Shown: positions 27,281-41,560, counted from the first letter of the stretch. The stretch is 48,488 bases of DNA from Synechococcales cyanobacterium (GCA_043739045.1 JAYUEW010000059.1:1-48488), one strand, 5' to 3'. Program-made: numbers and translations. The notes: a model not told the origin generated them from the sequence alone.

Positions 27281-27955
27281 TTAAGTTTGCCAATTGAAGA
27301 ATGCAATATTCATGATTAACCAAAGAAATCCGACACTATAGCCTGCTAAAATATCCGTGGGCCAGTGAACCCCCAAGTACAACCGACTTATGCCGATCGC
27401 TCCAATCACAACAGACACTACACTATAAAAAATACGCGACTTTTGAGGAAATAGTTTAGAAAGTAGAAAGGCCAAAGCTCCATAAAGAACCATTGAACCT
27501 AAGGCATGACCACTGGGAAAACTGAAAGATGTTTCTGGAATCAATCTTGGCCAAAGTTCTGGACGTGGTTTCGCAAAAATTAGTTTCATTCCTGTATTTA
27601 AAACGAATGCTCCAGTTAAGGCGATCGTAAACATCACGACTTCCGCATATCTTCGCTTTAAGCCAAACCAAACTAATGTTGCAATGACGACGGCTATCAC
27701 CCACTCTGGGTTTCCCAGCCGTGTCAATGCAATCATGAGATTGTCCAATTGAGGAGTTGCCCATTGGTGGATGCTAAGTAAAATTTGCCGATCAAATCCA
27801 AAAGACTCTTTTTCCAAGACTTCCTGACAAAGCCAACCGATCAACAGTAGTAATGTGAAGCAAAGGGCGAGACTGATCAAACTGAGTCCTATCATCTGAG
27901 AGGTTTTAGCGTTAATTTGAGATAGGGAAGCAGTGAGTTTTTTCATAGGGTCCAA
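27281..27955 (-). CDS. PAP2-family phosphatase (undecaprenyl-diphosphatase-like membrane protein)
   Basis: 224 aa and polytopic. It has the acid-phosphatase motifs KLIFAKPRP, PSGHA and SRLYLGVHWPTD. Confidence 0.85.
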   Translation of the reverse strand: MDPMKKLTASLSQINAKTSQMIGLSLISLALCFTLLLLIGWLCQEVLEKESFGFDRQILLSIHQWATPQLDNLMIALTRLGNPEWVIAVVIATLVWFGLKRRYAEVVMFTIALTGAFVLNTGMKLIFAKPRPELWPRLIPETSFSFPSGHALGSMVLYGALAFLLSKLFPQKSRIFYSVVSVVIGAIGISRLYLGVHWPTDILAGYSVGFLWLIMNIAFFNWQT

Positions 27956-28075
27956 TACAAAAAATCCATTGTGGTCTTATTTTCTCATTTTAATGGATGG
28001 TTGATTTTACGGTGGTTTTGTATTGGGGATTTATAGTGGTTCTATTGCTGCATTTTTGTGAGTGAGGATTGGGGA

Positions 28076-29119
28076 ATGGAGATTACTTTTTTGGGGACGA
28101 GTTCTGGGGTGCCGACGCGATCTCGGAATGTGTCGAGTGTGGCGTTAAGGTTGCCGCAGCGATCGGAGGTGTGGTTGTTTGATTGTGGGGAAGGGACGCA
28201 ACATCAGTTTTTACGGAGTGAGTTGCGATCGAGTCAGATTCGGCGAATTTTTATTACGCATATGCATGGAGACCATATTTTTGGGTTGATGGGGTTGTTG
28301 GCGAGCTGTGGGTTGGCGGGGGCGGTGTCGGAGATTGATATTTATGGTCCTCCTGAGTTGGGGGATTATTTGGCGGCAGCGAGACGGTTTTCACAGACGC
28401 ATTTGTCCTATCCGGTGCGGGTGCATGTGGTGAAGCCCGGATTTGTGATGGATGATGGTGAGTTTCGAGTGGATTGTGCGCTGTTGAAGCATCGGGTGAC
28501 GGCCCATGGGTTTAGGGTGACGGAGCGCGATAAGGTGGGAATTTTTGATGTGGAGAAGGCGAAGGCGTTGGGAATTCCGTTTGGTCCGGTTTACGGTGAG
28601 TTGAAGCGGGGCGGGCGGGTGACGTTGGCGGATGGTCGGGTGTTTGAGGGCGCGGATTTTGTGGGTCCGATGGAGCGGGGTCGAAGTGTTGTTTATTGTA
28701 CGGATACCGTTTTTTGCGATCGGGCGGTGGAATTGGCGCGGGGGGCGGATGTGTTGATTCATGAGGCGACCTATTCTCATGCGGATGCGGAGATGGCGAT
28801 CGCTCGGCAGCATTCAACGTCTACGATGGCGGCTCAGACGGCGCATTTGGCGGGGGTGGATACTCTTTTGATGACCCATTTTAGTCCGAGGTATGCGCCG
28901 GGGAATGGGGGGCTGGAGTGGAAGGATTTGTTGGCGGAGGCGCGATCGATTTTTCCGAATACGTTGATGGCGAAGGATTTCTGGTCGTTTGAGGTGCCGA
29001 GGCGACGGGAGGATGTTACGGAGTCTCAGAATGAGTTGCAAGTTAAGACTCAGGATGTGTCTCAGATTGAGATTGAGAATGTTGAGGTTAAGAAGCGGGT
29101 GATCGTGAAGAAGAAGTGA
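28076..29119 (+). CDS. rnz: Ribonuclease Z (tRNA 3' endonuclease) with a charged C-terminal tail
   Basis: [28 protein letters not shown], the HMHGDH metallo-beta-lactamase motif and a C-terminal HFSPRY are present. There are about 40 extra E/K/V-rich residues at the end. Codon third positions are almost all G or T. Confidence 0.9.
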
Positions 29120-29510
29120 GGCGGTGGCGGAGTTGGTGGAGGCGATCGATCGTGTTGACGGGGTGGTGGGGTTGAAGGGTGTCGCTGTTGGGCCAGGTGT
29201 CCATGTTTTGGCAGATGCAGTGGTTGCCGATGATGCCTGCGATTTTTAGGGGAACGGGCATTTCGCATCTTGCGCAGTCGATGATTTCCCAGGTTCCGGT
29301 GAGGAGTTGGGCGAGGTCTATTTCGCTGTCTTCGAGGTGGGCGAGGTGGGGGGTTGCGAGGATTTCCTGCCAGAGGGTTTCAAATTCGGGGCTGGGGCGA
29401 TCGGTGTTGAGAGTGGGGGTGATGGTGTGGGGGATGCCGTTGAGGATAAGGGGTTTGCCAAGTTGAAACCAGTGGGTGAGGTATTGGCGAATTTCTTTGT
29501 GAGTGGCCAT
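29088..29510 (-). CDS. Hypothetical protein (Cys-containing, possibly conserved in cyanobacteria)
   Basis: 140-aa ORF with coherent NNC/NNA codon usage. Its 3' end overlaps rnz by 32 bp. I recognise no family. Confidence 0.45.
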
Positions 29511-29737
29511 AATGCTTTGTGGGTGAAGAGGTATTGCTATGTTATCTGCTGTAGAGGGTTGATGGGGGGAAGAAAGTCTGTAGGTTTTTTAAGATTGAAG
29601 TATCGTTTAAGTCTTGATTTAGGACTTGTTGCGAGTCTTATTTAAGAAGATGATTTGAGTGCGATCGTTGACTGAGCATTTATTTATGCCATGCCTGCAC
29701 ATCACTTAACGGAATCCCAATTCGATCGTCCCGGAGG

Positions 29738-30400
29738 CTACACCAATGTTTTCATGAACCATTGGGCGGCGCTGATGTTGGATTCTTCGGTGAGGCGGTC
29801 GAGGGTTTGTTCGAGGAGTGCGATCGGGAGTCCGGTGAGATTGAGAGAAGTTTCGATCGGTTGGTATTTTCCGTTTTCTTGGAGACCGAAGGCGAGGACT
29901 TGCTGACCTTTGACGTTGATGACCCAATATTCAGGGATACCGAGGGCGGCGTAGAGTTGCTTCATTTCATCGAGGTCAACGGCGAGGGTTGTATCCGAGA
30001 CTTCTCCGACGAGGTCGGGAATACGCCATGTGTTGAGATCGATACGCCGAGATTGGCCTTCTTTCCAAGTTGGGGCACCATCACCAAGGTAGAGAACTAA
30101 GTCTGGTGCGGCGGCTTGGTATCCCGGTTTTTCCAAGAGGGCACCACCAAAGGTTTCTGCTTTTTGGTCTGGATGGAGAAGAAACCAGATCGTTAGAATT
30201 GCTGTGAATAAATCGTGAACTCTCGCATGACCAATGCCTTCCCAACCCATGTCGTTTACCCGTAAATATCCATTGTGAAAGTACAAGCGGTGACGATCGC
30301 TTGTCTCAGATTTGTCGCGTTGTCGTTCATAATCTGCCCAGCTTGCAGGTTGCCAGAGGGTGATTTTGGATGAGGTTGGAGTCAGGGATGTTGCGATCAT
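29738..30400 (-). CDS. Uma2 family (DUF820) PD-(D/E)XK endonuclease-like protein
   Basis: 220 aa. It has W..YE, a YF.NG.L.V motif, PDLV...GEVSDTT and IPEYWVINV, typical of Uma2. Confidence 0.8.
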   Translation of the reverse strand: MIATSLTPTSSKITLWQPASWADYERQRDKSETSDRHRLYFHNGYLRVNDMGWEGIGHARVHDLFTAILTIWFLLHPDQKAETFGGALLEKPGYQAAAPDLVLYLGDGAPTWKEGQSRRIDLNTWRIPDLVGEVSDTTLAVDLDEMKQLYAALGIPEYWVINVKGQQVLAFGLQENGKYQPIETSLNLTGLPIALLEQTLDRLTEESNISAAQWFMKTLV

Positions 30401-30552
30401 GGACTTCTTGAGGAGTTACAAAGATCTTGGATTTAGTATAACTCTAGCGGGTTGGAGGTGAGGGGAACGACTGCTGAAAGGCGATCGATTTGCGATCGGT
30501 TTTTCCCAATAAATCCTCAAAATTTTAATAGTACATTTAGACTATTTTCAGT

Positions 30553-30581
30553 CTTTGGACTTCTGTGTGTTCCGCAGTTAA
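30553..30581. repeat. Left copy of a perfect 29-bp direct repeat (putative attL core)
   Basis: CTTTGGACTTCTGTGTGTTCCGCAGTTAA is identical to 45837-45865. The 13 bp to the left are partly similar (8/13). Confidence 0.85.
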
Positions 30582-30603
30582 TCACCTGTACTACTTAGAC
30601 CAT

Positions 30604-30638
30604 AAAAACCGCTCAAAGCAACACTAAGAGCGGTTTTT
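30604..30638 (-). terminator. Rho-independent (bidirectional-looking) terminator ending the element's long minus-strand operon
   Basis: Stem AACCGCTC (30607-30614) pairs with GAGCGGTT (30628-30635). It is flanked by an A-run on one side and TTTTT on the other, 70 bp downstream of the last minus-strand gene. Confidence 0.7.
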
Positions 30639-30708
30639 ATATGTTTGAAAAATCTTTAGTTAGGTATAAATTGAGGCAATAGATAAACCTGGCAGCTACG
30701 TACATTTA

Positions 30709-31008
30709 TCATTCAGATCTAGCATCGTATCGCCCCTCTAGGTGGGACACTCTCTGACAAATTTCAGAGTGATTTTGTGCAGTTTTATCCACATGACTCT
30801 CCAGCGTATTTTGCAGTAAATCAACAGCGTTGGTAATCCGAGAAAAATCGCTTGCGGCGGCGTATTCGGCGGTTTTAGCCCTAATCCTACGCCTCGTAAA
30901 ATCGACAAATAAAGCGCTCCCTGATCCAACAGTGCCTGCGATCGTTGCCATTAAAGAAGCCATCTGTACTAAATCGTCTAGTTTTATTTCAATCATTTTC
31001 TTGTTCAT
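30709..31008 (-). CDS. Small membrane / coiled-coil protein (holin-like position, unknown function)
   Basis: The start is taken at MNKKMIEIK, 4 nt after the stop of the upstream gene. The longer ORF to 31086 overlaps that gene. It has one hydrophobic helix (MASLMATIAGTVGSGSALFV) and then a charged helical tail. Confidence 0.5.
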   Translation of the reverse strand: MNKKMIEIKLDDLVQMASLMATIAGTVGSGSALFVDFTRRRIRAKTAEYAAASDFSRITNAVDLLQNTLESHVDKTAQNHSEICQRVSHLEGRYDARSE

Positions 31009-31012
31009 CGGG

Positions 31013-31561
31013 TTATGTGAGTTTTTCGATCGTGAGGGTGTTGAAAATCTCAGCGCCAGCAAGAACAGAATCAGTACTGTAACCAACCCCGATAAGGGTT
31101 TTAATGCTGTACGGTAATGCCGTTGTTAGTTGCAAATCAACAAATCCACCACATATTCCATCTGTGTTGTCTACGCTTTCGTACAAATCTGATATTTTTG
31201 TAATGCCTTGATAAATCATGATTTTACGGCGTGTATTATATGGGTTTGTTGCCCATACTTTTATGCTAATTCTGTAAAGCGCTGTACTGTTTGGAGTAAA
31301 AACTCCATTAGTAAAGAGGTTTTGAGAATCAATAATTTCCGTGCTAAACGGGATAAGCACTTCAAGGCCCGCAGACAATACATTTGCATCTTGTCTTGCG
31401 TAAACCAATACACGAGATGTTGCTGCCCCGATCGTGGTATTCAGGACCACTTCACCTGAAGCGTTAGGAGGAAAAGTTATAGTATTATTCCCCGTAGGTG
31501 CCCATTTTAAAAGCCCGGTGAAAGCACCGTTAATCCATCGAGCACCGTTTACAAAACTCAT
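31013..31561 (-). CDS. Putative receptor-binding tip protein with a C1q/TNF-like jelly-roll signature
   Basis: 182 aa, immediately downstream of the tail-fibre gene. NGVFTPNSTALYRISIKVWA resembles the G.F.aP..G.Y.F core of C1q-like domains. Confidence 0.4.
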   Translation of the reverse strand: MSFVNGARWINGAFTGLLKWAPTGNNTITFPPNASGEVVLNTTIGAATSRVLVYARQDANVLSAGLEVLIPFSTEIIDSQNLFTNGVFTPNSTALYRISIKVWATNPYNTRRKIMIYQGITKISDLYESVDNTDGICGGFVDLQLTTALPYSIKTLIGVGYSTDSVLAGAEIFNTLTIEKLT

Positions 31562-31565
31562 ACGA

Positions 31566-32885
31566 TTAACCTGTTAGTCCCACTCTGTACTGGTTTGTGG
31601 TAGGAGCTACTGCAAAAGTGAACGTAGTAGTATTCGCGGTTGAGAATGCCACGGACGGGACCACAGAATTAAATGGGCTAGCTGCTTGAACACATACCCA
31701 ATTGGGGACAGCATTATTTAGGTTGTGCGTAACCGTAATGACGGTACTAGCTCCATCCCCAATCAATTGCGCAAATTTACGTGCGACAACAGCCGTATTA
31801 ATTGCAATGTCATCAGCATTGACGGTGATGCCAATCCCCGCCCCAGCATTTAAGACATTACCTGTCTTGGTTAGACCTAACCCCGCTGTAATTTGACCCG
31901 CGCCCGATGTCTGAATGAAAGTTAGTGCAGTTGTTCCTAAAACGATCGGGTTTGGAGTCGTTAGCGTGTAGCCATTGGATATGTTGTTGACGGAACCTTC
32001 CGATACGAAAACAAACATTCCGGGCTTGACTTCAGCCGTGGTATCAGAACTAGTGGCGCGAGTTAACGGAATTGCGGCCCCGTTAAAAACATACAGGCCA
32101 TTTTCCGCCGCCGTAGTCTGACCGATTAAGAGTATTTGATTTCCATTAACCAGGGTTACACCGTCAATCGCCGTACCGGGTGTTGCGATCGCAATGTTTC
32201 CCGTAGCAACGACTCGCGCTTCTCCTTTGTTGTTTCCCGTGGAAATCAAAGCGTCAGCGTAGTCTTTATTTACTGCGTCAGACCCAAGTGTGGGAGTTGC
32301 AACTGCTGTTATTCTTTGGTTGTTTAGTGAGACTGCGCTAGTTGGAGATGCTAATTGGTCTAGGCGAGATGCACGAACCTGTGTATCAAAATCGCTGATC
32401 GAGCTACTGGGTTGTGTTCCTGTATGGTTGGCTCGTGTCAGATAAAATAGTGCGGCCTGACTGTTTAGGGTTGTGGCATTTGAGGCCGTACCCGTGAGGT
32501 TCCCTGTTACAGTCCCAACTGCAATATTCCCACTAGCATCTCGCTGTACAAGGGCGTTTGGGGTGTTCGCGGCTGTAGACGCACCGAGTTTAATGAAATC
32601 CGAAATGGACATTGACCCCGCTAAACTTCCACTAGCAGGAGAAATGCTAATTGTGGGAGTTGTCCCACCAGTGGAGACGAGTGGGGCTGTAACAGCGACA
32701 GACACTACGGCACTAGTTGTAAAGTATTCCCAAGATACGCCGTTAAAAGACCCGGCTTTAAGAAGCGTAGTGTCAAAATATCTTTGACCACGTACAGGGT
32801 TGGACGGTGGGGCGGCTAAGTTTTGGCTAACAAGATTACGCGCCTCAACCCCCGCGAAGTCTAGATGATCGACGAGAAATGGCAT
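31566..32885 (-). CDS. Phage tail fibre protein
   Basis: 439 aa. It has PSNPVRGQRYFDT, LVQRDASGNIAVGTVTGNLTGTASNATTL, HTGTQPSSSISDFD and LNNQRITAVATPTLGSDAVNKDYAD. It also has IDGVTLVNGNQILLIGQTTAAENGLYVFNG...RATSSD and a C-terminal THNLNN...F.F beta-sandwich. All are motifs recurrent in phage tail fibres. Confidence 0.8.
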   Translation of the reverse strand: MPFLVDHLDFAGVEARNLVSQNLAAPPSNPVRGQRYFDTTLLKAGSFNGVSWEYFTTSAVVSVAVTAPLVSTGGTTPTISISPASGSLAGSMSISDFIKLGASTAANTPNALVQRDASGNIAVGTVTGNLTGTASNATTLNSQAALFYLTRANHTGTQPSSSISDFDTQVRASRLDQLASPTSAVSLNNQRITAVATPTLGSDAVNKDYADALISTGNNKGEARVVATGNIAIATPGTAIDGVTLVNGNQILLIGQTTAAENGLYVFNGAAIPLTRATSSDTTAEVKPGMFVFVSEGSVNNISNGYTLTTPNPIVLGTTALTFIQTSGAGQITAGLGLTKTGNVLNAGAGIGITVNADDIAINTAVVARKFAQLIGDGASTVITVTHNLNNAVPNWVCVQAASPFNSVVPSVAFSTANTTTFTFAVAPTTNQYRVGLTG

Positions 32886-32894
32886 GAGAAAGTC

Positions 32895-33200
32895 CTATAT
32901 ACAGTAAGCGATTCCGGCGAAAACAGAAGCAAAAGTGATGGTTGATTTATTTAGTCCATCGCTCAAAATAGAACCGTCAACCTTCATTCCATTGGTTGAA
33001 AATGTTGTAATTGATACGGGTTTATTTAAGTTATGGTTTATCGTCCATACGGTAGACGGGGCGGTTTGATCGTGAATATAAAAAGAGGCTTTGTTATTCA
33101 GATCTTGTCTAAGCTCATTTTTTGCAGTAGCTAGAGTATCCGCGATCGTCTGTTTCATAGCCCGGATAGTTTCACTGGGGACAGAGTTGAATACAGGCAT
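32895..33200 (-). CDS. Small structural-module protein with a tail-fibre-type beta-sandwich motif
   Basis: 101 aa. STVWTINHNLNKPVSITTFSTNG...STITFAS repeats the motif at the C-terminus of the 439-aa fibre (ITVTHNLNNAVPNWVCV...TTTFTFA). Confidence 0.5.
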   Translation of the reverse strand: MPVFNSVPSETIRAMKQTIADTLATAKNELRQDLNNKASFYIHDQTAPSTVWTINHNLNKPVSITTFSTNGMKVDGSILSDGLNKSTITFASVFAGIAYCI

Positions 33201-33203
33201 AAG

Positions 33204-33887
33204 TCAAGTCTGTGCATATTCGACAATTTGTAATGTCGTGGGGCTGAACGAGTCTGAAACCATCCATATATTTCCAATATCACCGCCATCTGAAATCCAT
33301 TGCCCACCGGGATACAGAGTTTCAGGGGCGTTATTTTTGGATATGTTGGGTTCAAACCCGATATAGATAGTTGAGCCTGATGAGTTGTACATTGTCGCAG
33401 AGCTACGATCGCGCCGCGATTCAAGAATCTGTACGGGAGTTGGCGAGGGATTGTATGTATAAAACCGACGTATTCGGCCTCGTATAAACTCCCCTGTATC
33501 TTCCTCGGGGCCGATATAACTCCACAAATCCAACTCAAAAGACGGGAACCACTTAGGAGGCGAGATCTTTAGCCGATACTCTCCTAAATCTTCTAAAAAA
33601 ATCAGCTTAGTGTCATTCAGGGTGAGACGTTCGGGCTTTATTAGAGCTTCTGAGAAATGGCTGTTAGAGCATTGCAGAAGCGGCCTTAGCAATCCCCCAT
33701 ATTTCCAGGTCGGAGAACCTGATAGAGAGGTCGTTTTAGCCGCCAGAATACGCCTATCAAGCAATAAAGGGACAACCTGTTCAGGAATAGCCTTCTGTAA
33801 GCTATAAATCATTCCAGCCGACAACCTGAAGGACCATAACGGAATCCAGTGTTGAGGATTACTAAGCTCTAATAAAAGCCGTCCCAT
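33204..33887 (-). CDS. Hypothetical structural-module protein
   Basis: 227-aa ORF, tightly packed (a 3-nt gap to each of its two neighbours). I recognise no family. Confidence 0.5.
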   Translation of the reverse strand: MGRLLLELSNPQHWIPLWSFRLSAGMIYSLQKAIPEQVVPLLLDRRILAAKTTSLSGSPTWKYGGLLRPLLQCSNSHFSEALIKPERLTLNDTKLIFLEDLGEYRLKISPPKWFPSFELDLWSYIGPEEDTGEFIRGRIRRFYTYNPSPTPVQILESRRDRSSATMYNSSGSTIYIGFEPNISKNNAPETLYPGGQWISDGGDIGNIWMVSDSFSPTTLQIVEYAQT

Positions 33888-33889
33888 AG

Positions 33890-34090
33890 TTAGCCTAAGG
33901 AGACAGAAATAGAGGCAGAAACCTTGGAAACTTCCGATTGAATGAATTGAGATTGGAAGACGCCTTGAAGGTATCGAGCGTCTTGGATACTTCCAATAAG
34001 TTTAGCTTCGGATGGATCTGCGACGAAAACAGAACCGTTGTAGAACGAGATTTCACCCGCTTCATTGACTTGCTTAATTACAAAATTCAT
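33890..34090 (-). CDS. Hypothetical small protein
   Basis: 66-aa ORF in operon register, 2 nt from the next gene. Confidence 0.4.
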   Translation of the reverse strand: MNFVIKQVNEAGEISFYNGSVFVADPSEAKLIGSIQDARYLQGVFQSQFIQSEVSKVSASISVSLG

Positions 34091-34155
34091 GATGATTTAA
34101 TGAGGTTGAAAGTGAACAAAACTCGGTAATCGAATTGACTAGGCAATCGAATTGA

Positions 34156-34743
34156 CTAGAACGTATAAATGCGACGGCGGGGGACCCGGACTTTAACAAT
34201 GTCATTTCCCGCGTATTTCAGTCCTACAAGCGTCTTGAACAAATTAGGCCCAAGTTTGGTAGGACTGCAAAGAACCTTGGCGGTTTGGAGTTTATTTCCT
34301 TTTTTGTAGACTAGATTAATAGCCACACAACCAGCCTCTAAAGCGTCGCTTTTACCGCTTCCTGCTAGTGTTTTTCCCGTTGGGACTTCTCCGCCTGCAG
34401 CACCTTTAGTAATCCCGAGCGTGGTGAGCAGACCTGACATGGCAGTAGCAACCATCTGAGTCTGGACAACAGTGTCATTTGTAATAGCAATAAAATGGGG
34501 GTCTCTTGCAGGCATGTTGTTTATTTGTGAGTGAACACCTGCATTCTTGCCAATGAGTACCAGCATCGTCAATATGTTTAACGATCGGGTCAATTGACCC
34601 GATAGAAACTTAGATGAACATCCGCTTTTTATTGTTCTCCAGTGGCAGCAATCGCCATTTACCCTTAAATTTTCGGGCAACGATGTAACCATGTGAGATG
34701 CCGTAATAAACGGAGGAAATAGAGTAGCTATAACGCTTGGCAT
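34156..34743 (-). CDS. Hypothetical protein (start uncertain; may begin at an internal Met, MPARDPHF...)
   Basis: 195-aa ORF. The C-terminal ~119 aa (MPARDPHFIAITNDTVVQTQ...VRVPRRRIYTF) look like a globular beta-rich protein. The N-terminal part is Cys/Ser-rich and may be non-coding. Confidence 0.4.
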   Translation of the reverse strand: MPSVIATLFPPFITASHMVTSLPENLRVNGDCCHWRTIKSGCSSKFLSGQLTRSLNILTMLVLIGKNAGVHSQINNMPARDPHFIAITNDTVVQTQMVATAMSGLLTTLGITKGAAGGEVPTGKTLAGSGKSDALEAGCVAINLVYKKGNKLQTAKVLCSPTKLGPNLFKTLVGLKYAGNDIVKVRVPRRRIYTF

Positions 34744-34817
34744 ACATAGCTACAGATATCATTGATGATTGTTGTTTGATTGATAACTTTATCGTCCTGA
34801 GATTTCCGCCATAGATT

Positions 34818-37256
34818 CTAAGCCGCTCCATCTTTAATCCCCCTAAAATCGACTGACCATACAGGTGTAAGGTCCTCATTCCCTTTCAGGAAGTAACGAG
34901 CCTCAACAGGATGCAGGGTTATTTCTGCAATCTTTTTCCCTCCTCTTAAACCAGGCTCAGGAACAACAGAATTCTTATATTCGGGTTCTAATCCTTGAAT
35001 GATTTTCGTCATTGCGTCCTTAGCATCTTTCACGGATTTAGCATTAAGCGTTATTTTTGAACCATCCTTGAATTCTAAAATGCATTGATATTGACCCTTA
35101 TTAAGGATTGGGAAGTCTGGCTTTTTAGTTGTTTTTTCATTCTTTCCCCAATGTGGAATAGTGATTGAGTATTTAGCAGATTTATACTTACCTTTGTCGT
35201 CTTTTTCTGCATACAGAACTACCAGCTTTGACATGTTTGCCCATTTAGCGGGCATCCAATCAGGGAGCACTAATAAAGGCTCTTTTTGCTCACATTGCAA
35301 CGCCAAAATATCAGCCTCATTCTCAAGCATCATTTTCCACGCAGCGGAAGACCCTGCAAGCACTGATACTGATACCTCTCCGAATACTATTTTGCCGTCT
35401 TTATCCCTAGAGCATCCGGTGAACTGCTTCACTTTGATAGTCTCTGGCCTAGTTTGGTTTCCGGTCCGCTTTGCACACGGATCGGCATCCTTGCACGGGT
35501 CAGTGCCGGGGATTGGTTGAGGCTGTGGTTGAGGCTGTGGGGCGGGGACGCCTCCACCCGATGGATCAAAAAACGGTTTATCTCTTTCCCTTGGGTCTGT
35601 TTTTGGATCGCTTCCTGGATTAATGCCCGGTTTTGGGCTTGGTGCCCCTGTTGCTATGGGGTCGTACCTAATAATGGTCTTTGAACCCGCTGCACTGCCG
35701 CTTGACGATCCACCCGGCGATCCACCCGGCGATCCACCCGGCTTGAAACCAGGCGATCGATCGGGTTCGGGTTGTTGCTCCCTTTTTGGTTTTATCTCGT
35801 TCTCCGGCTTCAATTCAGGCCGTGGGGCACGATCGCCACCCGGTGACGGCATAAGGCCGCCGAATGGGTTTCCGTTGGGGGTAGGGTTTCCGTCCGGTCC
35901 GGGTGATGGTGATGGATCTCTACCCGGCGCTGGCCTATTGTTAGGGTCAAGTCCAGGCGAGGGTGGGGCTGATGGGTCTGTTAGATTTCCAGGGGCGTTG
36001 CGTGGTCCTAATCCAGGATCGGGGCCGCCGTCTGGGACAAATTTTACTCCTGCAACATCAGCTCCATCGCTTTTATCCTCATATCCAGAATGAACCTGGA
36101 TCCAATCGCTGTACGGCTCTTTAAATTGCCAAACATAAAAACTTACACCAGGGAGGAACGTAGGCTCTAATACTCCTAGTTTCCAAATTCTGTCGGATGT
36201 GCCGATGTCGGCTTGCGGGAATGAATTCTCACCCTGGATTTGATTCCAGGACCACAGCCCCGGCGTTCCAGGCGCATAAATAGGTGCGAAAGGGTTGTCG
36301 GGTTCGGTATTCGGTCTATTCGGATCTCTGAATGGGGCATTGGGGTCCGGGGCCGGCTCACCCTTTTTTCTGCGTTTGAATGGGTCGTCTGCCAGGGGGT
36401 CTTGAAATTTTGGGCCGCCTGCCCATTCGGGAAGTAATCCCCTCAGCGCCTTTCCTGGATCTTTTGCAAACTCAGGAGACAGAATAATAGGCAAGAGCGC
36501 ACCCCCGATCGCACCAAGCGCTCCTGCACCCGCACCTCCGCCCCTCATCGCGGGTGCCCGGTTTGGACTGAATGGGGCTGGTCTAGTAGGGGTCCCAGAC
36601 GGTGCCGATGTCGGAGGGTTTCCCCTCGCTGCTTGTCCCGATGATGTGCCCCCACTACCCCATGGGGAGTTAGACATTGGGCGATTATTTTCGATTACGG
36701 GTGAAGATTTAGACGGGGAACCTCCACTAGGGCGAGAACTTCCGCCCCCGTTTCCTGAGTTGCTGCCCCCTGTACCGGATGGGGTGTTCCCTCTAGAGGA
36801 TTGTCCTGAGATTGTGTCCGCCGATCGCGGGTTGCTCTGGCCAGTCGGTGCGCTTGAACTGCCAGAAGAAGGCTGTCTAGCCATTTCTTGATATCTTCGT
36901 TCTGTTTGAATTCTGGCCTCTTGTTGCTCCGCCGCGATTCTTCTTGATTCTTGTCTCACTCTGGCCTCACGATCGGCTTCAGCTTGCCTAGCGCGTTCTG
37001 GAGCGTCAGCCTCATATCGCTGTCTAGCCGCCTCAGCCTCATTACGTTGGTCCTCAAGCCGTGAAGCCGCTTTTCTTGCGTCAGCTAAATCCGAAATTCT
37101 TTTGTTTTCAGCCTGAAGAGAATCCCAATTCCTATCAATTCGAGTGCGGTTTTGAGCATCAAGAAAACGGGCTTGCTCCGGTGTTATGTTCCCAGCTCTA
37201 ACCTCATTAGTTAGACGCTCATGGTATTGGACTGGATCGACAACGGTATAAGGCAT
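34818..37256 (-). CDS. Large Pro/Gly/Ser-rich protein with an N-terminal charged coiled coil and an internal TM segment
   Basis: I place the start at ATG 37254-37256 (MPYTVVDP), because the ORF-track start at 37277 lies inside a terminator hairpin. An R/E/A/Q coiled coil is followed by an S/G/P low-complexity region and a TM helix (GAGALGAIGGALLPIIL). Long P-rich linkers follow (PQPQPQPQP, GGSPGGSPGGSSSGS), then a ~230-aa globular C-terminal domain. Confidence 0.65.
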   Translation of the reverse strand: MPYTVVDPVQYHERLTNEVRAGNITPEQARFLDAQNRTRIDRNWDSLQAENKRISDLADARKAASRLEDQRNEAEAARQRYEADAPERARQAEADREARVRQESRRIAAEQQEARIQTERRYQEMARQPSSGSSSAPTGQSNPRSADTISGQSSRGNTPSGTGGSNSGNGGGSSRPSGGSPSKSSPVIENNRPMSNSPWGSGGTSSGQAARGNPPTSAPSGTPTRPAPFSPNRAPAMRGGGAGAGALGAIGGALLPIILSPEFAKDPGKALRGLLPEWAGGPKFQDPLADDPFKRRKKGEPAPDPNAPFRDPNRPNTEPDNPFAPIYAPGTPGLWSWNQIQGENSFPQADIGTSDRIWKLGVLEPTFLPGVSFYVWQFKEPYSDWIQVHSGYEDKSDGADVAGVKFVPDGGPDPGLGPRNAPGNLTDPSAPPSPGLDPNNRPAPGRDPSPSPGPDGNPTPNGNPFGGLMPSPGGDRAPRPELKPENEIKPKREQQPEPDRSPGFKPGGSPGGSPGGSSSGSAAGSKTIIRYDPIATGAPSPKPGINPGSDPKTDPRERDKPFFDPSGGGVPAPQPQPQPQPIPGTDPCKDADPCAKRTGNQTRPETIKVKQFTGCSRDKDGKIVFGEVSVSVLAGSSAAWKMMLENEADILALQCEQKEPLLVLPDWMPAKWANMSKLVVLYAEKDDKGKYKSAKYSITIPHWGKNEKTTKKPDFPILNKGQYQCILEFKDGSKITLNAKSVKDAKDAMTKIIQGLEPEYKNSVVPEPGLRGGKKIAEITLHPVEARYFLKGNEDLTPVWSVDFRGIKDGAA

Positions 37257-37290
37257 GAAAAATAAAAAAGCACCCAAATACGGGTGCTGT
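37257..37290 (-). terminator. Rho-independent terminator between the small 100-aa gene and the 812-aa gene
   Basis: On the minus strand the hairpin AGCACCC-GTATTT-GGGTGCT (37269-37288) is followed by TTTTTTATTTTTC and then directly by the ATG of the next gene. Confidence 0.7.
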
Positions 37291-37307
37291 GAGTGTGAGT
37301 TTTTGGA

Positions 37308-37610
37308 TTAAGCGACTTTGAATGATGCAGGAACATCCGTGGAGACCACAACCCCTGCAAACTGCCAAAACTTCTTACTCCGATCGGAATAAACCGCACG
37401 GTCTAGAGGGATTGAAAGCCGCACGGCAACTCGTAGATTATTGTTAGCATCAACAAAGATAGGGGCTTGAGCGACACGTTCAGGTCGAGCGCCCTCCACC
37501 TCAAGAACCTCACGAGTACCCGCCGATTGTTCAAAAATGGTTCCAATCCATACAGCTAGTTTTTCGTAAGTATTGATATCGGGCGGAATATCAGAGGAAG
37601 TAAATATCAT
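37308..37610 (-). CDS. Small protein (about 100 aa), candidate abundant structural protein
   Basis: The ORF opens at a TTG (37631) and the ATG at 37610 gives MIFTSSDIPPDINTYEKLAVWIG... It is followed by a strong terminator. I recognise no family. Confidence 0.5.
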   Translation of the reverse strand: MIFTSSDIPPDINTYEKLAVWIGTIFEQSAGTREVLEVEGARPERVAQAPIFVDANNNLRVAVRLSIPLDRAVYSDRSKKFWQFAGVVVSTDVPASFKVA

Positions 37611-37678
37611 GATGAGTCTCAAATGGGACAACTCAAGTATACAGCCTGGTATAAAATATCACCTGCACTTTTCCCAGA

Positions 37679-37945
37679 TCAGGACCGATCGCGCTCTAGT
37701 CTGTATATCGCTCTTTTCCATCGCTGTTCCTCAGTGTCTGCGAACTCTAAACCAACCATCCTGTGTGCAAGGTCAATATCACCCGCACACATTCGATATA
37801 GGAGTTCTCTCGTTTCCTGACTAGGACCATATTCAGTCCTGGTTGTCTGTGTGCGCGGCGGATGAACTTTTGCTCTACTTGACTGCAACAAGGTCCTAGC
37901 CAGGACGTAAAAGAGGAAGCAACACAGGAAAAAGAGAGAGGCCAT
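37679..37945 (-). CDS. Small membrane-anchored protein
   Basis: 88 aa. It has an N-terminal hydrophobic helix (MASLFFLCCFLFYVLARTLL), then a basic region and a helical C-terminus. Confidence 0.4.
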   Translation of the reverse strand: MASLFFLCCFLFYVLARTLLQSSRAKVHPPRTQTTRTEYGPSQETRELLYRMCAGDIDLAHRMVGLEFADTEEQRWKRAIYRLERDRS

Positions 37946-38143
37946 ATTCTTAGATTTTCTAATGATTCTAGTATTATTCCCAGTCCAAGAACTAACCAGA
38001 ACTTCTGTCCAAAAACGCAGAAGTCCAAACCAAACAACAGGCTTTGTGACGATCGCCGCCGCTTATTGCGAGTGATGAATGAAGGGTTTCAAATATCGCT
38101 TTTTGGTGATGTAGTCCGTTTTTAGTCCAGTGGGTCATTCTCA

Positions 38144-38190
38144 ATAAAAAAACCCCGATCGCCATGAGTTTCGATCGGGGTTTTGTTTTC
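38144..38190 (-). terminator. Bidirectional rho-independent terminator after the ATPase module
   Basis: Stem CCCCGATCG (38153-38161) pairs with CGATCGGGG (38172-38180). An A-run lies upstream and TTTTGTTTT downstream, so it is readable on both strands. Confidence 0.7.
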
Positions 38191-38195
38191 AATTT

Positions 38196-38299
38196 GGTAA
38201 CGGTAATCGGTAACGGTAATCGGTAACGGTAACAGAGGCAGTAACGGCGTTACTGATACCTTTTTTTGCTGTTACTGCGTTACGTTGCTGGCCTGTTAC
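38196..38299. repeat. Array of GTAAC / GTTAC pentamers in convergent orientation (iteron-like protein-binding array)
   Basis: GGTAACGGTAATC x2 plus GGTAACGGTAACA (38196-38234) are followed by the palindrome GTAACGGCGTTAC (38241-38253). GTTAC then occurs at 38271, 38279 and 38295. Confidence 0.85.
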
Positions 38300-38323
38300 T
38301 GGAACCGAGAAAATCAGTTATTG

Positions 38324-39955
38324 TTAGGAAATAAGGCTTTGTAGCACATCCCAAATCTCATCCCGATTATCCCTTAAATACTCAGATTTCCTATCATTCT
38401 TAGCCCGATTCATGAAGTCGTTCTTGGTGATGCCGCCTGCGCTTTCACGCCTAGCAATCGACCACTGATAAGCAATCATGAGCGCTTCCCGTTTATTAAT
38501 ATCCGGGACCGATTCAATGAGGCCGATCGCCGGGTCTGCGAACGTTTCCAGGTAAGCACGGGTGAAAACTTCGGTTGCTGTTGCTGTGCCCCATTGGACC
38601 GACTCACCCGCAGGAACCGGAATCTCTCCCCATATTTTTAGCTTGGGGGTTGAGGCCGATCGCTTAGCCAGTTCGTCCGGCGGAACCGTGGGAATTGGTA
38701 GCCAAGATTGAGAATCGTGGGAGTAGGCGATCGTTTGGTATTGGTTGAACAGTGGGAAATCTGCACCAATCTTAGGAGCCTCAAAACTTCCATTCCCGCC
38801 GTTAGCAAATTTGAGGTTTTCCCGGCTTGCGAGGGTGTAATTTTTCAAACTCTTTAAGGCAGAACTTGAAACCCCGGTGCCATCGACCGTAGCGAGGGGT
38901 GTCATGACCCAAACAAATCGATCGACTGACTGACGCATTGAAGCTTCATGAACCAAGAAATCCATTAACCAGACTGAGAATGAGCGATTATCGTTGTTAA
39001 ATAGCTCGTCATCCAATTCAGACATTTTGACGGGTTTCAAACGAGATAGAGTACTAGATAATTCATCCAGGATGAACAGGATGGGAGCCGCTGGAGAGCT
39101 GGGCAGGCTCTGCCAGTGGCGAATCATTGAATAGAGGGATTGTGCCGCGCGGGTGGGATTTTGGTCTAGGTCAGGATTGAAGAATTGGTCGCAGGTCTCC
39201 CAATACCAATGCTCTTTTGGATCTTGTTTGGGCGTGTAGCCGTAAAGGATTCCGGTTGGATATTTCTGCTTGTAGGCAATCATGGCGATCGTAATCATGA
39301 TGCCTTTCCCTGTTCGCGGCGGCGCTGCGACATAGGACGATCGCACTGGATTGACCATGGAATCAATAGCCGTTGGAATCTTGCAAGTTCCGCCCGCGCT
39401 TGTGGGTGCGACTGCCTGTAATGCAATAGTTCCAGGCAATGCAGCCGATTCATGGGGAAGGTCTTTGAGTTGCTGAATCTCTTCCATGAATGCCGAAATC
39501 GTCCGACGCTTGGGCTTTTTGTTCATGGCCAGACAGAGCCTGCGAGCGGCGGCGGTGATGGTCTGCCCGTCTTGGTAGGCTTGCAAGACTTCAGAGACAG
39601 CCGCGTCAGGTCCAACGATTTCGGCATAACGGACAAGTTCAGGCTCTTTCAACGCATGGGCCAGAACTCCCACATCTTTGATATATTCGGCATCCTTGCC
39701 CTTTTGAATGGCTCCATCTACAGCGTTGTAGATGAAATAAAGTCCGGCGATGGCACCAATTATAGGGATTCCTGAAATTGAAGACATTCCGAATCCAATG
39801 GCTAAGCCTGACACTAGGGGAAAGGCAGAACTTGACACCACGCCGTTTAAGGCTTCATCGGCAATGTCTTCGATTTGGTCTAGTTTCTCGTTGGATAGTT
39901 TGGAATATTTCTGTAATAGCCGGGGAATACGATCGGTGGAGATGCTTGATAACAT
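38324..39955 (-). CDS. Membrane-anchored P-loop NTPase resembling the FtsK/HerA and type IV coupling protein (VirD4/TraG) families
   Basis: 543 aa. Hydrophobic Gly-rich helices lie at about residues 43-78. Walker A is AAPPRTGKG (about residues 210-218; compare APTRSGKG of VirD4/TraG-type proteins) and Walker B is ILFILDELS. Confidence 0.65.
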   Translation of the reverse strand: MLSSISTDRIPRLLQKYSKLSNEKLDQIEDIADEALNGVVSSSAFPLVSGLAIGFGMSSISGIPIIGAIAGLYFIYNAVDGAIQKGKDAEYIKDVGVLAHALKEPELVRYAEIVGPDAAVSEVLQAYQDGQTITAAARRLCLAMNKKPKRRTISAFMEEIQQLKDLPHESAALPGTIALQAVAPTSAGGTCKIPTAIDSMVNPVRSSYVAAPPRTGKGIMITIAMIAYKQKYPTGILYGYTPKQDPKEHWYWETCDQFFNPDLDQNPTRAAQSLYSMIRHWQSLPSSPAAPILFILDELSSTLSRLKPVKMSELDDELFNNDNRSFSVWLMDFLVHEASMRQSVDRFVWVMTPLATVDGTGVSSSALKSLKNYTLASRENLKFANGGNGSFEAPKIGADFPLFNQYQTIAYSHDSQSWLPIPTVPPDELAKRSASTPKLKIWGEIPVPAGESVQWGTATATEVFTRAYLETFADPAIGLIESVPDINKREALMIAYQWSIARRESAGGITKNDFMNRAKNDRKSEYLRDNRDEIWDVLQSLIS

Positions 39956-40638: not shown

Positions 40639-40639
40639 C

Positions 40640-41161: not shown

Positions 41162-41526
41162 GCTGTTATCTCTGCTTCGATTGTGGACATTAAGGCGAGG
41201 TTGTTTGAGTGGGGTAGTTCTGCCCCATCGCCGAAAAAACTTAGGTCTATTGCTCCAATTCGTTGCCTAGCTTTGATGTAGGAGCTTTGGAGTCCCAAGC
41301 GAACAATGCTTTCAGCGCGAGTTGCAAAGTCGTCTGAGAGTTCGTCGATTTTGGCTTGAAGGTCTGCTAGTTCCTTTTCCTGGCGGTCTCTTGCTGCTTT
41401 CAGGAGAGTTAGGCGATCGGTGGTAGGTTCGATCGGCTCAGTCGGTTCTAGGGACCGTTCTTCGGTATTTTTTAAGGCCATGGCTTTGGCGGCTCCGGGG
41501 TTAAAGCGTTTTGAACTGGTAGGCAT
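41158..41526 (-). CDS. Coiled-coil protein
   Basis: The start is taken at the ATG (MPTSSKRF), which is preceded by a strong GGGAGGA Shine-Dalgarno sequence. The central helix is LTLLKAARDRQEKELADLQAKIDELSDDF. Confidence 0.55.
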   Translation of the reverse strand: MPTSSKRFNPGAAKAMALKNTEERSLEPTEPIEPTTDRLTLLKAARDRQEKELADLQAKIDELSDDFATRAESIVRLGLQSSYIKARQRIGAIDLSFFGDGAELPHSNNLALMSTIEAEITA

Positions 41527-41560
41527 TTTATTGGTCCTCCCGATGGGTTTAAACAATGAC

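What the first reader, a model, noticed from the sequence alone, without database searches (positions are those of the whole stretch)
30553..30581. Perfect 29-bp direct repeats 15,284 bp apart, at a strand-skew polarity switch, bounding an element with no recognisable integrase
Seen:
- CTTTGGACTTCTGTGTGTTCCGCAGTTAA occurs at 30553-30581 and 45837-45865, with partial similarity (8/13) just to the left of each copy.
- I can fold no tRNA or tmRNA 3' end over it.
- None of the ORFs between the repeats shows tyrosine- or serine-recombinase or DDE motifs by eye.
- The chromosome left of the element is G+T-rich on the plus strand. The chromosome right of it is A+C-rich.

Established: chromosomal dif sites sit at the skew switch of the terminus. 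Integrative mobile elements exploiting Xer (IMEX; for example CTX-phi and the gonococcal island) carry no integrase and end up flanked by dif-like repeats.

Inference: the element may integrate through a host Xer-type or another host-encoded recombinase at a dif-like site.

Caveats: the 29-mer has no obvious 11-6-11 dyad symmetry. Other skew flips exist in the window, for example inside xfp.
Basis: partly seen in the sequence, partly recalled or inferred. Interest (0 to 1): 0.7.

Follow-up and report, generated by a model that had tools for sequence, protein, structure and literature searches.

The report
Integrase-less mobile element in a cyanobacterium
The two 29-bp repeats are the junctions of a 15.3-kb mobile element inserted at a precise chromosomal site in a cyanobacterium. 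The element has replication and DNA-pumping genes but no integrase, so another enzyme must insert it, and the host DNA beside the site has an extreme, unexplained strand bias.

Summary
The repeat is real: two perfect copies, none expected by chance. A related genome has one copy between the same flanks, so 30582-45836 is a precise insertion. It belongs to an undescribed family of 12-17 kb cyanobacterial integrative episomes. These share a membrane FtsK/HerA-like ATPase module and swap replication/integration modules. Relatives carry a tyrosine integrase beside the replication gene and target tRNA genes. This element has an HNH nuclease there, and no recombinase was found by Pfam, NCBIfam, PHROGs or tblastn. 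A sibling without integrase or HNH sits at the same site and places the crossover in core bases 1-21. Two Logan contigs abut through a k-mer expected only from a circular or tandem form. The recombinase most likely acts in trans.

The dif/Xer reading is neither shown nor excluded:
- The site has no dyad symmetry above chance.
- It does not resemble known dif sites, and no cyanobacterial dif is known.
- The window shows no replichore-scale skew.

The local skew switch is real and extreme. Plus-strand third-codon-position G+T excess (keto3) is +0.33 to +0.77 left of the site and -0.35 to -0.83 right of it. It is independent of gene strand and also present at the empty site. Verdict: new variant of a known kind.

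The parts
30553..30581 (+). attL core (29-bp direct repeat, left copy)
   Evidence: Exact repeat. The left side continues into host flank that is also found at the empty site in L002.
45837..45865 (+). attR core (29-bp direct repeat, right copy)
   Evidence: Exact repeat. The right side continues into host flank shared with L002 and L019.
30582..45836 (.). Body of the integrated element (15,255 bp between the cores)
   Evidence: Absent from the empty site in L002. The same genes, at 100% protein identity, occur on contigs from other samples.
30602..30640 (.). Perfect 13-bp inverted repeat (terminator-like hairpin) in the P' arm, just inside attL
   Evidence: I1; conserved in sibling L019.
30709..34743 (-). 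Left-end cassette. ORFs 125 aa (TM plus coiled coil), 182 aa, 439 aa fibre-like, 101 aa, 227 aa, 66 aa, and 195 aa (gene callers give 136 aa, 34156-34566).
   Evidence: The 439-aa protein matches phrog_2647 (E 1e-87) and tail-fibre PHROGs. The 101-aa protein matches phage C-terminal domains. The rest have no family. The cassette is partly shared with siblings L007 and L019.
34818..37277 (-). 819-aa protein: coiled-coil N-terminus, long Pro/Gly/Ser-rich low-complexity middle, globular C-terminus
   Evidence: No Pfam or PHROG family. A weak TolA-like match is due to low complexity only.
38196..38300 (-). GTAAC/GTTAC repeat array directly downstream of the ATPase gene, followed by a terminator hairpin
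   Evidence: Arrays of the same motif occur at the same position in siblings L019, L016 and L004. Its role as a cis site for the ATPase is inferred.
38324..41965 (-). Conserved family core: 134 aa, 132 aa, 173 aa (TM), 227 aa (polytopic membrane), and 543 aa (N-terminal TM helices plus P-loop ATPase)
   Evidence: - 82 homologues of the 543-aa protein, all unnamed and without Pfam domains.
- The 132/173/227/543-aa genes recur in every sibling that holds that region; the 134-aa ORF matches only some.
- AF2 model pLDDT 73.5.
- Foldseek hits: RecA/Rho/TcpA/VirB4/STIV2 B204 in PDB, and FtsK-like and A32-like packaging ATPases in BFVD.
42168..42310 (.). Operator-like TCAAAGTTCTGA repeats in the divergent promoter region (41966-42351)
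   Evidence: D1, D2, I1, I3, I4.
42352..45034 (+). Regulation and replication genes: 86-aa ribbon-helix-helix protein, 67-aa protein, 705-aa Zn-finger/Toprim primase fused to a VapE-type helicase
   Evidence: - Weak TraY/Arc/RelB-like matches for the 86-aa protein.
- VapE domain E 5e-55.
- Primase/helicase PHROGs.
- PDB 7pds, E 3e-21.
45033..45279 (.). Iteron cluster (AAGGTGTGT / ACACACCTT, at least 12 copies in both orientations); candidate replication origin
   Evidence: conserved in L019/L018. Its function as an origin is inferred.
45308..45700 (+). 130-aa HNH endonuclease, in the position where sibling elements carry their integrase
   Evidence: phrog_1571, E 2e-21. Deleted in sibling L018/L019, which is integrated at the same site.
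45701..45836 (.). P arm: 136 nt between HNH and the core, containing the palindrome CATGGTGCGCACCAT (45707-45722)
   Evidence: about 95% identical in L018/L019.
27900..30552 (.). Host block with extreme G+T excess on the + strand (RNase Z, 140-aa ORF, Uma2)
   Evidence: Plus-strand third-position keto skew is +0.77, +0.65 and +0.33, regardless of gene strand. The same holds in the empty-site relative L002.
45866..48488 (.). Host block with extreme A+C excess on the + strand. The unskewed 46090-46804 cassette interrupts it.
   Evidence: Third-position keto skew is -0.45, -0.35 and -0.83. The same holds in L002 to the right of the core.

Best explanation
The repeats are attL and attR of an intact 15.3-kb integrative episome of a filamentous-type cyanobacterium.

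The element has:
- its own regulator;
- a primase-helicase and an iteron origin;
- a conserved membrane FtsK/HerA-like ATPase module with an adjacent repeat array;
- a fibre-like cassette;
- no integrase.

Mechanism: it enters and leaves the chromosome by conservative site-specific recombination. Recombination is between a core on the circular element (attP) and the identical chromosomal core (attB), with strand exchange inside the first 21 bp of the 29-mer. The recombinase is supplied in trans. I commit to a chromosomally encoded tyrosine recombinase of the host (Xer-like or another resident one) as the single most likely source.

Shown: the insertion, the empty site, the absence of a recognisable recombinase, a sibling at the same site, and the bounds on the crossover.
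Inferred: activity, the trans requirement, and the identity of the enzyme.
For: - Empty site. A single 29-mer lies between homologues of both flanks in the MAG contig JANXWB010000043.1.
- No recombinase. Nothing by Pfam, PHROGs or NCBIfam at strict and lax cut-offs, nor by tblastn with sibling integrases. No open frame longer than 72 codons spans the circularised junction, so there is no split SSV-type integrase. No integrase lies in the 30 kb to the left or the 2.6 kb to the right.
- Siblings keep an integrase exactly where this element has HNH, and they use tRNA-type sites.
- Sibling L019. Its primase is 84% identical and its backbone 94-96% identical. It is integrated at the same attB, also has no integrase hit, and has lost the HNH gene.
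- Crossover bounds from L019. Its attL and attR differ at core positions 22 and 28 and at -1 to -5. This bounds the exchange to positions 1-21 and shows that the element carries its own copy of the core.
- Circular or tandem form. Logan contig L011 ends at '...ggc+29-mer'. Contig L013 starts 'c+29-mer+tcacc...'. They overlap by 30 nt, which is k-1. The window has 't' before attL, so the 31-mer c-29mer-t fits only a circular or tandem junction.
- Sibling L007 is assembled in circular permutation, with attP between the cassette end and the integrase gene.
- All genes shared with L019 are intact.
Against: - No recombinase was identified anywhere, so the trans requirement is an argument from absence.
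- The attP evidence rests on one distinguishing base plus my knowledge of how Logan's k=31 contigs end. A tandem copy would look the same.
- Host flanks of the window and L019 are 94.9% identical, about the same as the element backbone. One old integration followed by vertical descent is therefore possible.
- The core has no dyad symmetry above chance, which is unusual for a tyrosine-recombinase core.
- About 130 nt of each arm is conserved. This would suit an arm-binding phage-type integrase better than Xer, although each arm also holds a hairpin or palindrome that could act as a terminator.
Confidence: 0.4

Rival explanations
1. Helper-dependent element, like a cis-mobilizable element (CIME) or a satellite. 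The integrase belongs to a co-resident related element that has the same attP. This element kept only the att site.
For: - The family is highly modular, and integrase-bearing members occur in the same sample series (BUSI22-1 scaffolds L003 and L004, and fragment L015 of this element).
- Integrase genes sit directly beside attP in siblings, so a small deletion or module swap would produce this architecture.
- The conserved arms of about 130 nt fit an arm-binding integrase.
Against: - No element with an integrase and this core was found. The core is absent from all fetched sibling loci and from IMG/VR.
- There is no integrase remnant in the 136 nt or 127 nt beside the core.
- Two diverged siblings both lack the gene.
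Confidence: 0.25
2. Fossil. The element integrated once through an integrase that was later lost, and it is now inherited vertically. The attP-like k-mer comes from a tandem duplication, a strain variant or a chimera.
For: - Flank identity (94.9%) is close to backbone identity (94%) between the window and L019.
- L019 has suffered a deletion of HNH.
- The circular junction rests on a single base.
Against: - All ORFs are intact, and they are identical in contigs from at least three assemblies.
- The window element and L019 differ by whole-module replacements, which require exchange with other elements.
- attL positions 20-33 differ at 6 of 14 bases between the two elements, whereas attR differs at 1 base in the core.
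- Under unitig rules, L011 ending with the full 'gc+29-mer' argues against a simple SNP variant of attL (inference).
Confidence: 0.12
3. The element encodes its own unrecognised recombination function. One version is that the HNH nuclease cuts empty attB copies in a polyploid cell and the element is copied in (homing). Another is that one of the unannotated ORFs is a new recombinase.
For: - HNH sits exactly where siblings carry the integrase.
- Most ORFs have no family.
- Resection from recurrent breaks at attB would expose the + strand on the left and the - strand on the right. This is the polarity of the observed deamination-type skew (inference).
Against: - L019 sits at the same site with HNH deleted.
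- Homing explains neither a 29-bp direct repeat nor an attP junction.
- Apart from the family core, also present in integrase-bearing siblings (L003, L005, L007), the window element and L019 share only the 134-aa and TM/coiled-coil 125-aa ORFs, the 67-aa protein and the primase-helicase.
- The skew is also present at the empty site and is too strong for rare events.
Confidence: 0.08
4. RecA-mediated Campbell-type recombination between an autonomously replicating plasmid and a chance 29-42 bp homology in the chromosome.
For: - The element has an origin and a primase, and relatives exist as plasmids.
- A single crossover in a shared segment would give exactly this structure.
Against: - The homology is only 21-29 bp.
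- Two siblings keep the same site and conserved arms.
- Every other family member whose ends were seen uses dedicated att sites with integrases.
Confidence: 0.05

Closest known systems
IMEX (integrative mobile elements exploiting Xer): CTX-phi, VGJ-phi, TLC-phi, the gonococcal genetic island
   Same: - No self-encoded integrase.
- Precise integration, flanked by direct repeats of a site about 28 bp long.
- The element carries its own imperfect copy of the chromosomal site.
- In L019 the differences between attP and attB lie in one end of the core, like a degenerate arm.
- The site sits at a local strand-polarity switch.
   Different: - The core shows no XerC-arm/spacer/XerD-arm dyad and no resemblance to known dif sites.
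- About 130-nt conserved arms flank the core.
- The element is not a filamentous phage.
- Neither a terminus location nor Xer dependence has been shown.
- No dif is known in cyanobacteria (PMC3025954, PMC6416890).
CIMEs (cis-mobilizable elements) and other att-flanked, integrase-less derivatives of integrative elements
   Same: An att-flanked element without an integrase, whose close relatives encode integrases at the syntenic position.
   Different: - No helper with the same att site was found.
- The element keeps full replication and transfer-like modules, rather than being a decayed remnant.
Actinomycete integrative and conjugative elements (AICEs, such as pSAM2 and SLP1), which use an FtsK-like TraB and clt repeats
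   Same: - Size of 9-24 kb.
- The same dual lifestyle as integrated element and plasmid.
- Its own replication module.
- One membrane-anchored FtsK/HerA-type ATPase with small membrane proteins.
- A short-repeat array next to the ATPase gene.
- A multicellular, filamentous host type.
   Different: - No sequence homology to TraB.
- No integrase here.
- A phage-like fibre cassette is present.
- Transfer has not been shown.
Tycheposons and PICI-like satellites of marine picocyanobacteria (bioRxiv 10.1101/2020.12.28.424599)
   Same: Small cyanobacterial integrative elements with modular gene content. That their replication genes are of the primase/VapE type is from my own recollection, not from the abstract read.
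   Different: - Those are defined by their own tyrosine recombinase and by tRNA targets.
- The ATPase module found here is not part of them.
- This comparison rests on the abstract and my own knowledge; the paper was not read in full.
Membrane-containing small dsDNA viruses with an FtsK/HerA (A32-like) packaging ATPase and exchangeable replication modules, such as pleolipoviruses and PRD1-like viruses
   Same: - A conserved block of membrane proteins plus an NTPase.
- Variable replication modules.
- Both integrated and plasmid forms.
- BFVD fold hits to packaging ATPases.
   Different: - No capsid, spike or other virion protein was recognised apart from the fibre-like cassette.
- The family is absent from IMG/VR.

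Membership tests
IMEX (Xer-exploiting integrative element) | The element encodes no integrase of its own | tested here: met
   Pfam, PHROGs and NCBIfam at strict and lax cut-offs, plus tblastn with sibling integrases: nothing found. No split ORF across attP.
IMEX (Xer-exploiting integrative element) | attP and the target are dif-like: two inverted arms of about 11 bp around a 6-8 bp centre, resembling the host dif | tested here: not met
   The best dyad is 7/11 for attB and 6/11 for attP, reached by 57% and 92% of shuffles. At most 15/28 positions match the E. coli, B. subtilis or V. cholerae dif sites. Caveat: the host lineage's own dif is unknown (PMC3025954, PMC6416890).
IMEX (Xer-exploiting integrative element) | The target is the single chromosomal dif at the replication terminus | tested here: inconclusive
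   There is a sharp local polarity switch at the site, but no replichore-scale skew in the other 27 kb. Only a contig is available. Most cyanobacteria have irregular skew (PMC7198777).
IMEX (Xer-exploiting integrative element) | Integration depends on host XerC/XerD | not testable with these tools
   This needs the host genome and genetics or biochemistry.
Site-specifically integrated mobile element (att-flanked) | An empty site with a single core copy exists in a relative, and the element is precisely bounded by the repeats | tested here: met
   L002 has one 29-mer between both flanks.
Site-specifically integrated mobile element (att-flanked) | The free form carries one core copy joining the two element ends (attP) | tested here: inconclusive
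   Logan contigs L011 and L013 abut through c+29-mer+t, with a 30-nt overlap. This rests on one diagnostic base, and no spanning contig was found.
Tailed temperate prophage | Terminase, portal, major capsid and tail genes | tested here: not met
   Only fibre-like proteins match PHROGs. None of the hallmark genes appears in the element or in sibling L019. The ATPase has no hit in INPHARED.
Target-site duplication of a transposon or casposon | The repeat is created from the target at insertion, the element does not carry its own copy, and a transposase or casposase is present | tested here: not met
   No DDE, Cas1 or HUH protein. The L019 attL and attR cores differ in the P'-side half, which shows an element-borne copy. 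The sibling uses the same site.
AICE-like conjugative integrating plasmid | An FtsK-like TraB translocase with a cognate clt repeat locus, plus an integrase | tested here: inconclusive
   A membrane-anchored FtsK/HerA-like fold and an adjacent GTAAC array are present. There is no sequence homology to TraB and no integrase.
Integration into the 3' end of a tRNA, tmRNA or small RNA gene | The core overlaps an RNA gene | tested here: not met
   ARAGORN finds none. Rfam finds none in the window at gathering score, and none in the intact attB locus at E<=1.

The most novel reading that the evidence does not exclude
The 29-mer, or the roughly 100-nt conserved block around it, could be the long-sought chromosome dimer-resolution or fork-fusion site of this cyanobacterial lineage.

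On this reading, forks converge or stall there every cycle. One strand would then be left single-stranded for about 2-3 kb on each side, which would explain the extreme, opposite, deamination-type synonymous-site skew.

The element would be the first cyanobacterial IMEX, using a host Xer-like recombinase.
Probability: 0.2. Interest if true: 0.85.

Novelty: new variant of a known kind. Interest (0 to 1): 0.6.

Why it matters
- It defines an uncharacterised family of small cyanobacterial integrative episomes. The family has 82 ATPase homologues, no Pfam domains, and is absent from IMG/VR. One lineage of this family has dispensed with its integrase yet still appears mobile.
- Finding its recombinase would reveal either the first Xer-type hijacking in cyanobacteria or a helper-satellite relationship between episomes.
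- The attachment site also marks a chromosomal point with an unusually strong, strand-switching mutational signature.
- No dif site has been predicted in cyanobacteria (Kono 2011, PMC3025954; restated in 2019, PMC6416890). This locus gives a concrete candidate that marker-frequency analysis and recombination assays can test directly.

Tried and rejected
Tried and rejected:
- tRNA, tmRNA or small-RNA target. ARAGORN and Rfam were negative, including at the intact attB.
- Split SSV-type integrase across attP. The longest spanning frame is 72 codons.
- Transposon target-site duplication. There is no transposase, the sibling uses the same site, and the element carries its own variant of the core.
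- HNH as the integrase. It is deleted in a sibling at the same site. The deletion could post-date integration, so this is not absolute.
- Outward in situ replication from the element's origin as the cause of the flank skew. The predicted polarity is the opposite, and the skew is also present at the empty site.
- A KOPS-like polar octamer in the skewed blocks. None was found.
- The third copy of TTTGGACTTCTG, at 38018-38029, as a functional site. It is not conserved in L019.

Searches that gave nothing:
- The exact 29-mer in metagenome contigs and viral contigs, and a 21-mer core in viral contigs.
- The ATPase in IMG/VR, as a single sequence and as a profile.
- The ATPase profile against PDB sequences.
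- PDB sequence searches with the fibre-like 439-aa protein, the HNH protein and the 227-aa left-cassette protein.
- PHROGs on the alternative module of L019.
- Literature searches for IMEX or dif in cyanobacteria. They returned only statements that none is known.

The metagenome scan with the ATPase profile returned only two loci.

Full report
**1. Observation**

The 29-mer CTTTGGACTTCTGTGTGTTCCGCAGTTAA occurs exactly twice in the window, at 30553-30581 and 45837-45865 on the + strand.
- No further copy appears with up to three mismatches, and none appears in 100 shuffles.
- No tRNA or tmRNA is found, and no Rfam family matches.

**2. The repeats bound a true insertion**

The one genome-collection scan found the 29-mer in one other genome, a Synechococcales MAG contig (JANXWB010000043.1 = L002).
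- That contig holds a single copy of the 29-mer.
- On one side lies a homologue of the window's left flank, with 94% DNA identity across the Uma2 gene and its upstream region up to the core.
- On the other side lies a homologue of the right flank, about 79% identical, followed by the homologue of the 171-aa ORF.

This is the empty site. The element is therefore 30582-45836 plus one core copy.

**3. Content of the element**

Minus strand, 41965 down to 30709:
- A conserved block of small proteins, comprising two membrane proteins and a 543-aa protein with N-terminal transmembrane helices and a P-loop.
- A second operon holding an 819-aa low-complexity protein, several ORFs without any family, a 439-aa fibre-like protein (phrog_2647, E 1e-87), and a small membrane/coiled-coil protein.

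Plus strand, 42352 to 45700:
- A ribbon-helix-helix protein and a 67-aa protein.
- A 705-aa Zn-finger/Toprim primase fused to a VapE helicase (Pfam E 5e-55).
- An iteron cluster at 45033-45279.
- A 130-aa HNH endonuclease (phrog_1571, E 2e-21).

The AF2 model of the 543-aa protein has pLDDT 73.5. It shows a RecA-fold ATPase behind the membrane helices. Foldseek hits are RecA, Rho, the TcpA coupling protein, VirB4 and STIV2 B204 in PDB. In BFVD they are FtsK-like and A32-like packaging ATPases. A GTAAC/GTTAC repeat array follows the ATPase gene here and in siblings. No terminase, portal or capsid gene is recognisable.

**4. Family context**

The 543-aa protein has 82 homologues. All are unnamed and without Pfam domains. 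None is in IMG/VR or in INPHARED. Contigs carrying these homologues show a modular family.

| Locus | Size or form | Replication / integration module | Attachment site |
|---|---|---|---|
| L003, L005 | about 12 kb | Tyrosine integrase next to an 891-aa protein whose N-terminal primase domain is 57-59% identical to the window's primase | L005: 62-nt tRNA 3'-end repeats; L003: a direct repeat of about 330 nt, not tested for a tRNA |
| L007 | Assembled in circular permutation; ATPase 97% identical | 291-aa integrase and a 1125-aa protein | A tRNA-3'-end-like attP lies between the cassette end and the integrase gene |
| L004, L010 | Integrated; one boundary seen | DUF3854 / DUF6788 | Not determined |
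| L009 | Plasmid-like | ParA / ParB | None seen |

Two more distant comparisons:
- A distant ATPase relative lies on a 17.3-kb circular Scytonema plasmid that carries an integrase.
- A distant VapE-primase element, L021, has a XisA/C-type recombinase beside the primase gene.

In the relatives with an integrase (L003, L005, L007, L021), it sits next to the replication gene, by the element end or attP. In the window, that position holds the origin and the HNH gene.

**5. No integrase in the window**

- Pfam, PHROGs and NCBIfam at strict and lax thresholds give no recombinase.
- tblastn with three sibling integrases finds nothing anywhere in the window.
- The flanks encode ordinary chromosomal genes.
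- In the circularised element, no frame longer than 72 codons crosses the core. This excludes a split SSV-type integrase gene.

**6. A sibling at the same site**

The closest relative of the primase (84% identity, P0084) lies on a 17.3-kb JGI contig, L018/L019.
- It has the same iterons and P arm, and the same chromosomal right flank (94.9% identical).
- Its core variants sit at both ends. attL is CTTTGGACTTCTGTGTGTTACACAGTTGA and attR is CTTTGGACTTCTGTGTGTTACGCAGTTAA, 16,989 bp apart.
- None of its 25 genes has a recombinase hit.
- The HNH gene is deleted except for about 25 nt.
- Its ATPase module is 94-96% identical to the window's, but its other modules are replaced.

What this shows:
- attL and attR differ at core positions 22 and 28 and at -1 to -5, so the element carries its own copy of the core.
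- The strand exchange lay within positions 1-21.
- HNH is not needed to remain at this site. It may not be needed to reach the site either, but the deletion could be secondary.

**7. Evidence for a free form**

- Logan contig L011 carries the RHH, 67-aa, primase and HNH genes. It ends exactly at the end of the 29-mer, reading '...ggc+29-mer'.
- Logan contig L013 comes from the same run and carries the cassette genes. In window orientation it starts 'c+29-mer+tcacctg...'.
- The two contigs overlap by 30 nt, which is k-1 for Logan's k=31 graphs (my own knowledge of the assembler).
- The window has 't' before attL. The 31-mer c-29mer-t therefore belongs only to a circular or tandem junction.

This is suggestive rather than conclusive, because one base carries the argument.

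**8. Testing the dif/Xer reading**

Sequence:
- The best 11-N(6-8)-11 dyad is 7/11 in attB and 6/11 in attP. These values are reached by 57% and 92% of shuffles.
- Matches to the E. coli, B. subtilis and V. cholerae dif sites are at most 15 of 28.

Literature:
- dif prediction failed in all cyanobacteria (PMC3025954). In 2019 there was still none (PMC6416890).
- Most cyanobacteria have irregular GC skew and may replicate from several origins (PMC7198777).
- No paper on IMEX in cyanobacteria was found.

Conservation:
- The core lies in a roughly 100-nt conserved noncoding block.
- A 5-6-nt patch directly to its left is hypervariable.
- Six same-strand T[AG]GACT motifs cluster around the site, against a window density of 0.36 per kb per strand.

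Genome-wide copy number and the position of the terminus cannot be tested from a contig.

**9. The skew**

Replichore-scale skew is absent. In 1-27.9 kb, skew follows gene orientation with an intercept near zero.

Next to attB, however, the host DNA is extremely asymmetric, and the asymmetry does not depend on gene strand.

| Gene | Coordinates | Strand | Side of attB | Plus-strand third-position keto skew |
|---|---|---|---|---|
| RNase Z | 28058-29119 | + | left | +0.77 |
| 140-aa ORF | 29088-29510 | - | left | +0.65 |
| Uma2 | 29738-30400 | - | left | +0.33 |
| 90-aa ORF | 46626-46898 | - | right | -0.45 |
| 171-aa ORF | 47260-47775 | + | right | -0.35 |
| Uma2 | 47880-48482 | - | right | -0.83 |

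- The other 20 host genes (1-27.9 kb) lie between -0.31 and +0.19, and the element's genes between -0.14 and +0.22. The NTase fragment in the inserted cassette is at +0.28.
- 88-91% of third positions in RNase Z and the right-hand Uma2 gene are G or T.
- The same pattern, with the flip at the core, is present in the empty-site genome L002.
- At the 300-nt whole-sequence level, recent insertions are unskewed: the element, a 1.5-kb HicAB-like cassette in L002, and a 0.7-kb nucleotidyltransferase cassette at 46090-46804.
- Flanks of other family members show nothing similar.

Interpretation (inference):
- The signature is depletion of C and A, that is C>T and A>G, on the + strand at the left and on the - strand at the right.
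- That polarity fits lagging-strand templates of forks converging on the site. It also fits the 3' tails left by resection of breaks at the site.
- It is opposite to the polarity expected from outward replication from the element.
- It remains unexplained.

**10. Mechanism and rivals**

| Explanation | Confidence |
|---|---|
| Conservative site-specific recombination within core bases 1-21, by a recombinase encoded in the host chromosome | 0.40 |
| Same reaction, with the recombinase from a helper element that has the same attP | 0.25 |
| Fossil insertion, inherited vertically | 0.12 |
| Unrecognised self-encoded function, including HNH homing | 0.08 |
| RecA-mediated Campbell-type recombination | 0.05 |

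The first two rows together give about 0.65 for a recombinase that the element does not encode. A specifically Xer/dif mechanism is part of the first row, and I put it at about 0.2.

**11. Comparison and novelty**

- It works like an IMEX or a cis-mobilizable element. It cannot be filed as an IMEX, because the dif-like site criterion was tested and not met, and Xer dependence is untested.
- Its backbone resembles AICE-type integrating plasmids and small membrane viruses in logic, but not in sequence.
- I found no description of this family in the searches I ran.
- I rate it a new variant of a known kind. The upside is that the locus may mark a cyanobacterial dif or termination site.

Noticed in passing
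window 27900-30552 and 45866-48488; L002 (reverse complement) 1-300 and 2700-4260: Host DNA on both sides of attB has extreme strand asymmetry of opposite sign. Third-codon positions are 88-91% G/T in RNase Z and in the right-hand Uma2 gene. The asymmetry is independent of gene orientation and is also present at the empty site. At the 300-nt whole-sequence level it is absent from recent insertions, and it is absent from the flanks of other family members. The cause is unknown.
   Followed up: partly
window 38196-38300 (- strand); L019 9219-9304; L016 10863-10910; L004 11731-11773: An array of GTAAC/GTTAC repeats lies directly downstream of the FtsK/HerA-like ATPase gene, at the same position in several siblings. 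It is a candidate cis site for DNA translocation, comparable to clt or pac.
   Followed up: partly
window 45308-45700 compared with L018 12380-12500: The HNH endonuclease gene is cleanly deleted in the closest sibling, where only about 25 nt of its start remain. ENA contig L012 ends at the deletion boundary, which suggests that both variants coexist in one community.
   Followed up: partly
window 30400-30581 and 45866-45960 (the reconstructed attB region): Six same-strand T[AG]GACT motifs lie within about 280 nt, where about 0.1 would be expected. Most are conserved in L002 and L019. This may be a protein-binding array at the attachment site.
   Followed up: partly
window 30547-30552, and the equivalent positions in L002, L019 and attP (45831-45836): The 5-6 nt immediately left of the core differ in every host and in attP (TCAGT, CTCTAG, TTGAG, CTGGC, CCGGC). 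The sequences on both sides of this patch are conserved.
   Followed up: no
window 46090-46804; L002 (reverse complement) 389-1876: Small cassettes come and go next to attB. The window has a nucleotidyltransferase (MNT-like) fragment plus a 90-aa ORF. L002 has a HicA/HicB-like pair. The locus is a hotspot for small insertions.
   Followed up: partly
window 38018-38029 (- strand): A third copy of TTTGGACTTCTG (core bases 2-13) lies inside a hairpin, GGACTTCTG-N10-CAGAAGTTC. It is not conserved in L019, so it is probably a chance match.
   Followed up: yes
window 45594-45609 and 45707-45722: There are two copies of the palindrome CATGGTGCGCACCAT(G). One lies inside the HNH gene and one lies just after it in the P arm.
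   Followed up: no
L020 (AP018200.1, Scytonema sp. HK-05 plasmid6, 17,328 bp): A cultured cyanobacterium carries a small circular plasmid with a distant homologue of the ATPase (25% identity) and an integrase gene. This would be a tractable relative of the family.
   Followed up: partly
L019 3149-8219: The sibling carries a different six-gene plus-strand module (475, 142, 106, 320, 225 and 411 aa) in place of the window's 819-aa region. None of the six has a PHROG or Pfam family.
   Followed up: partly
This is ordinary host metabolism and unrelated to the finding.
   Followed up: no
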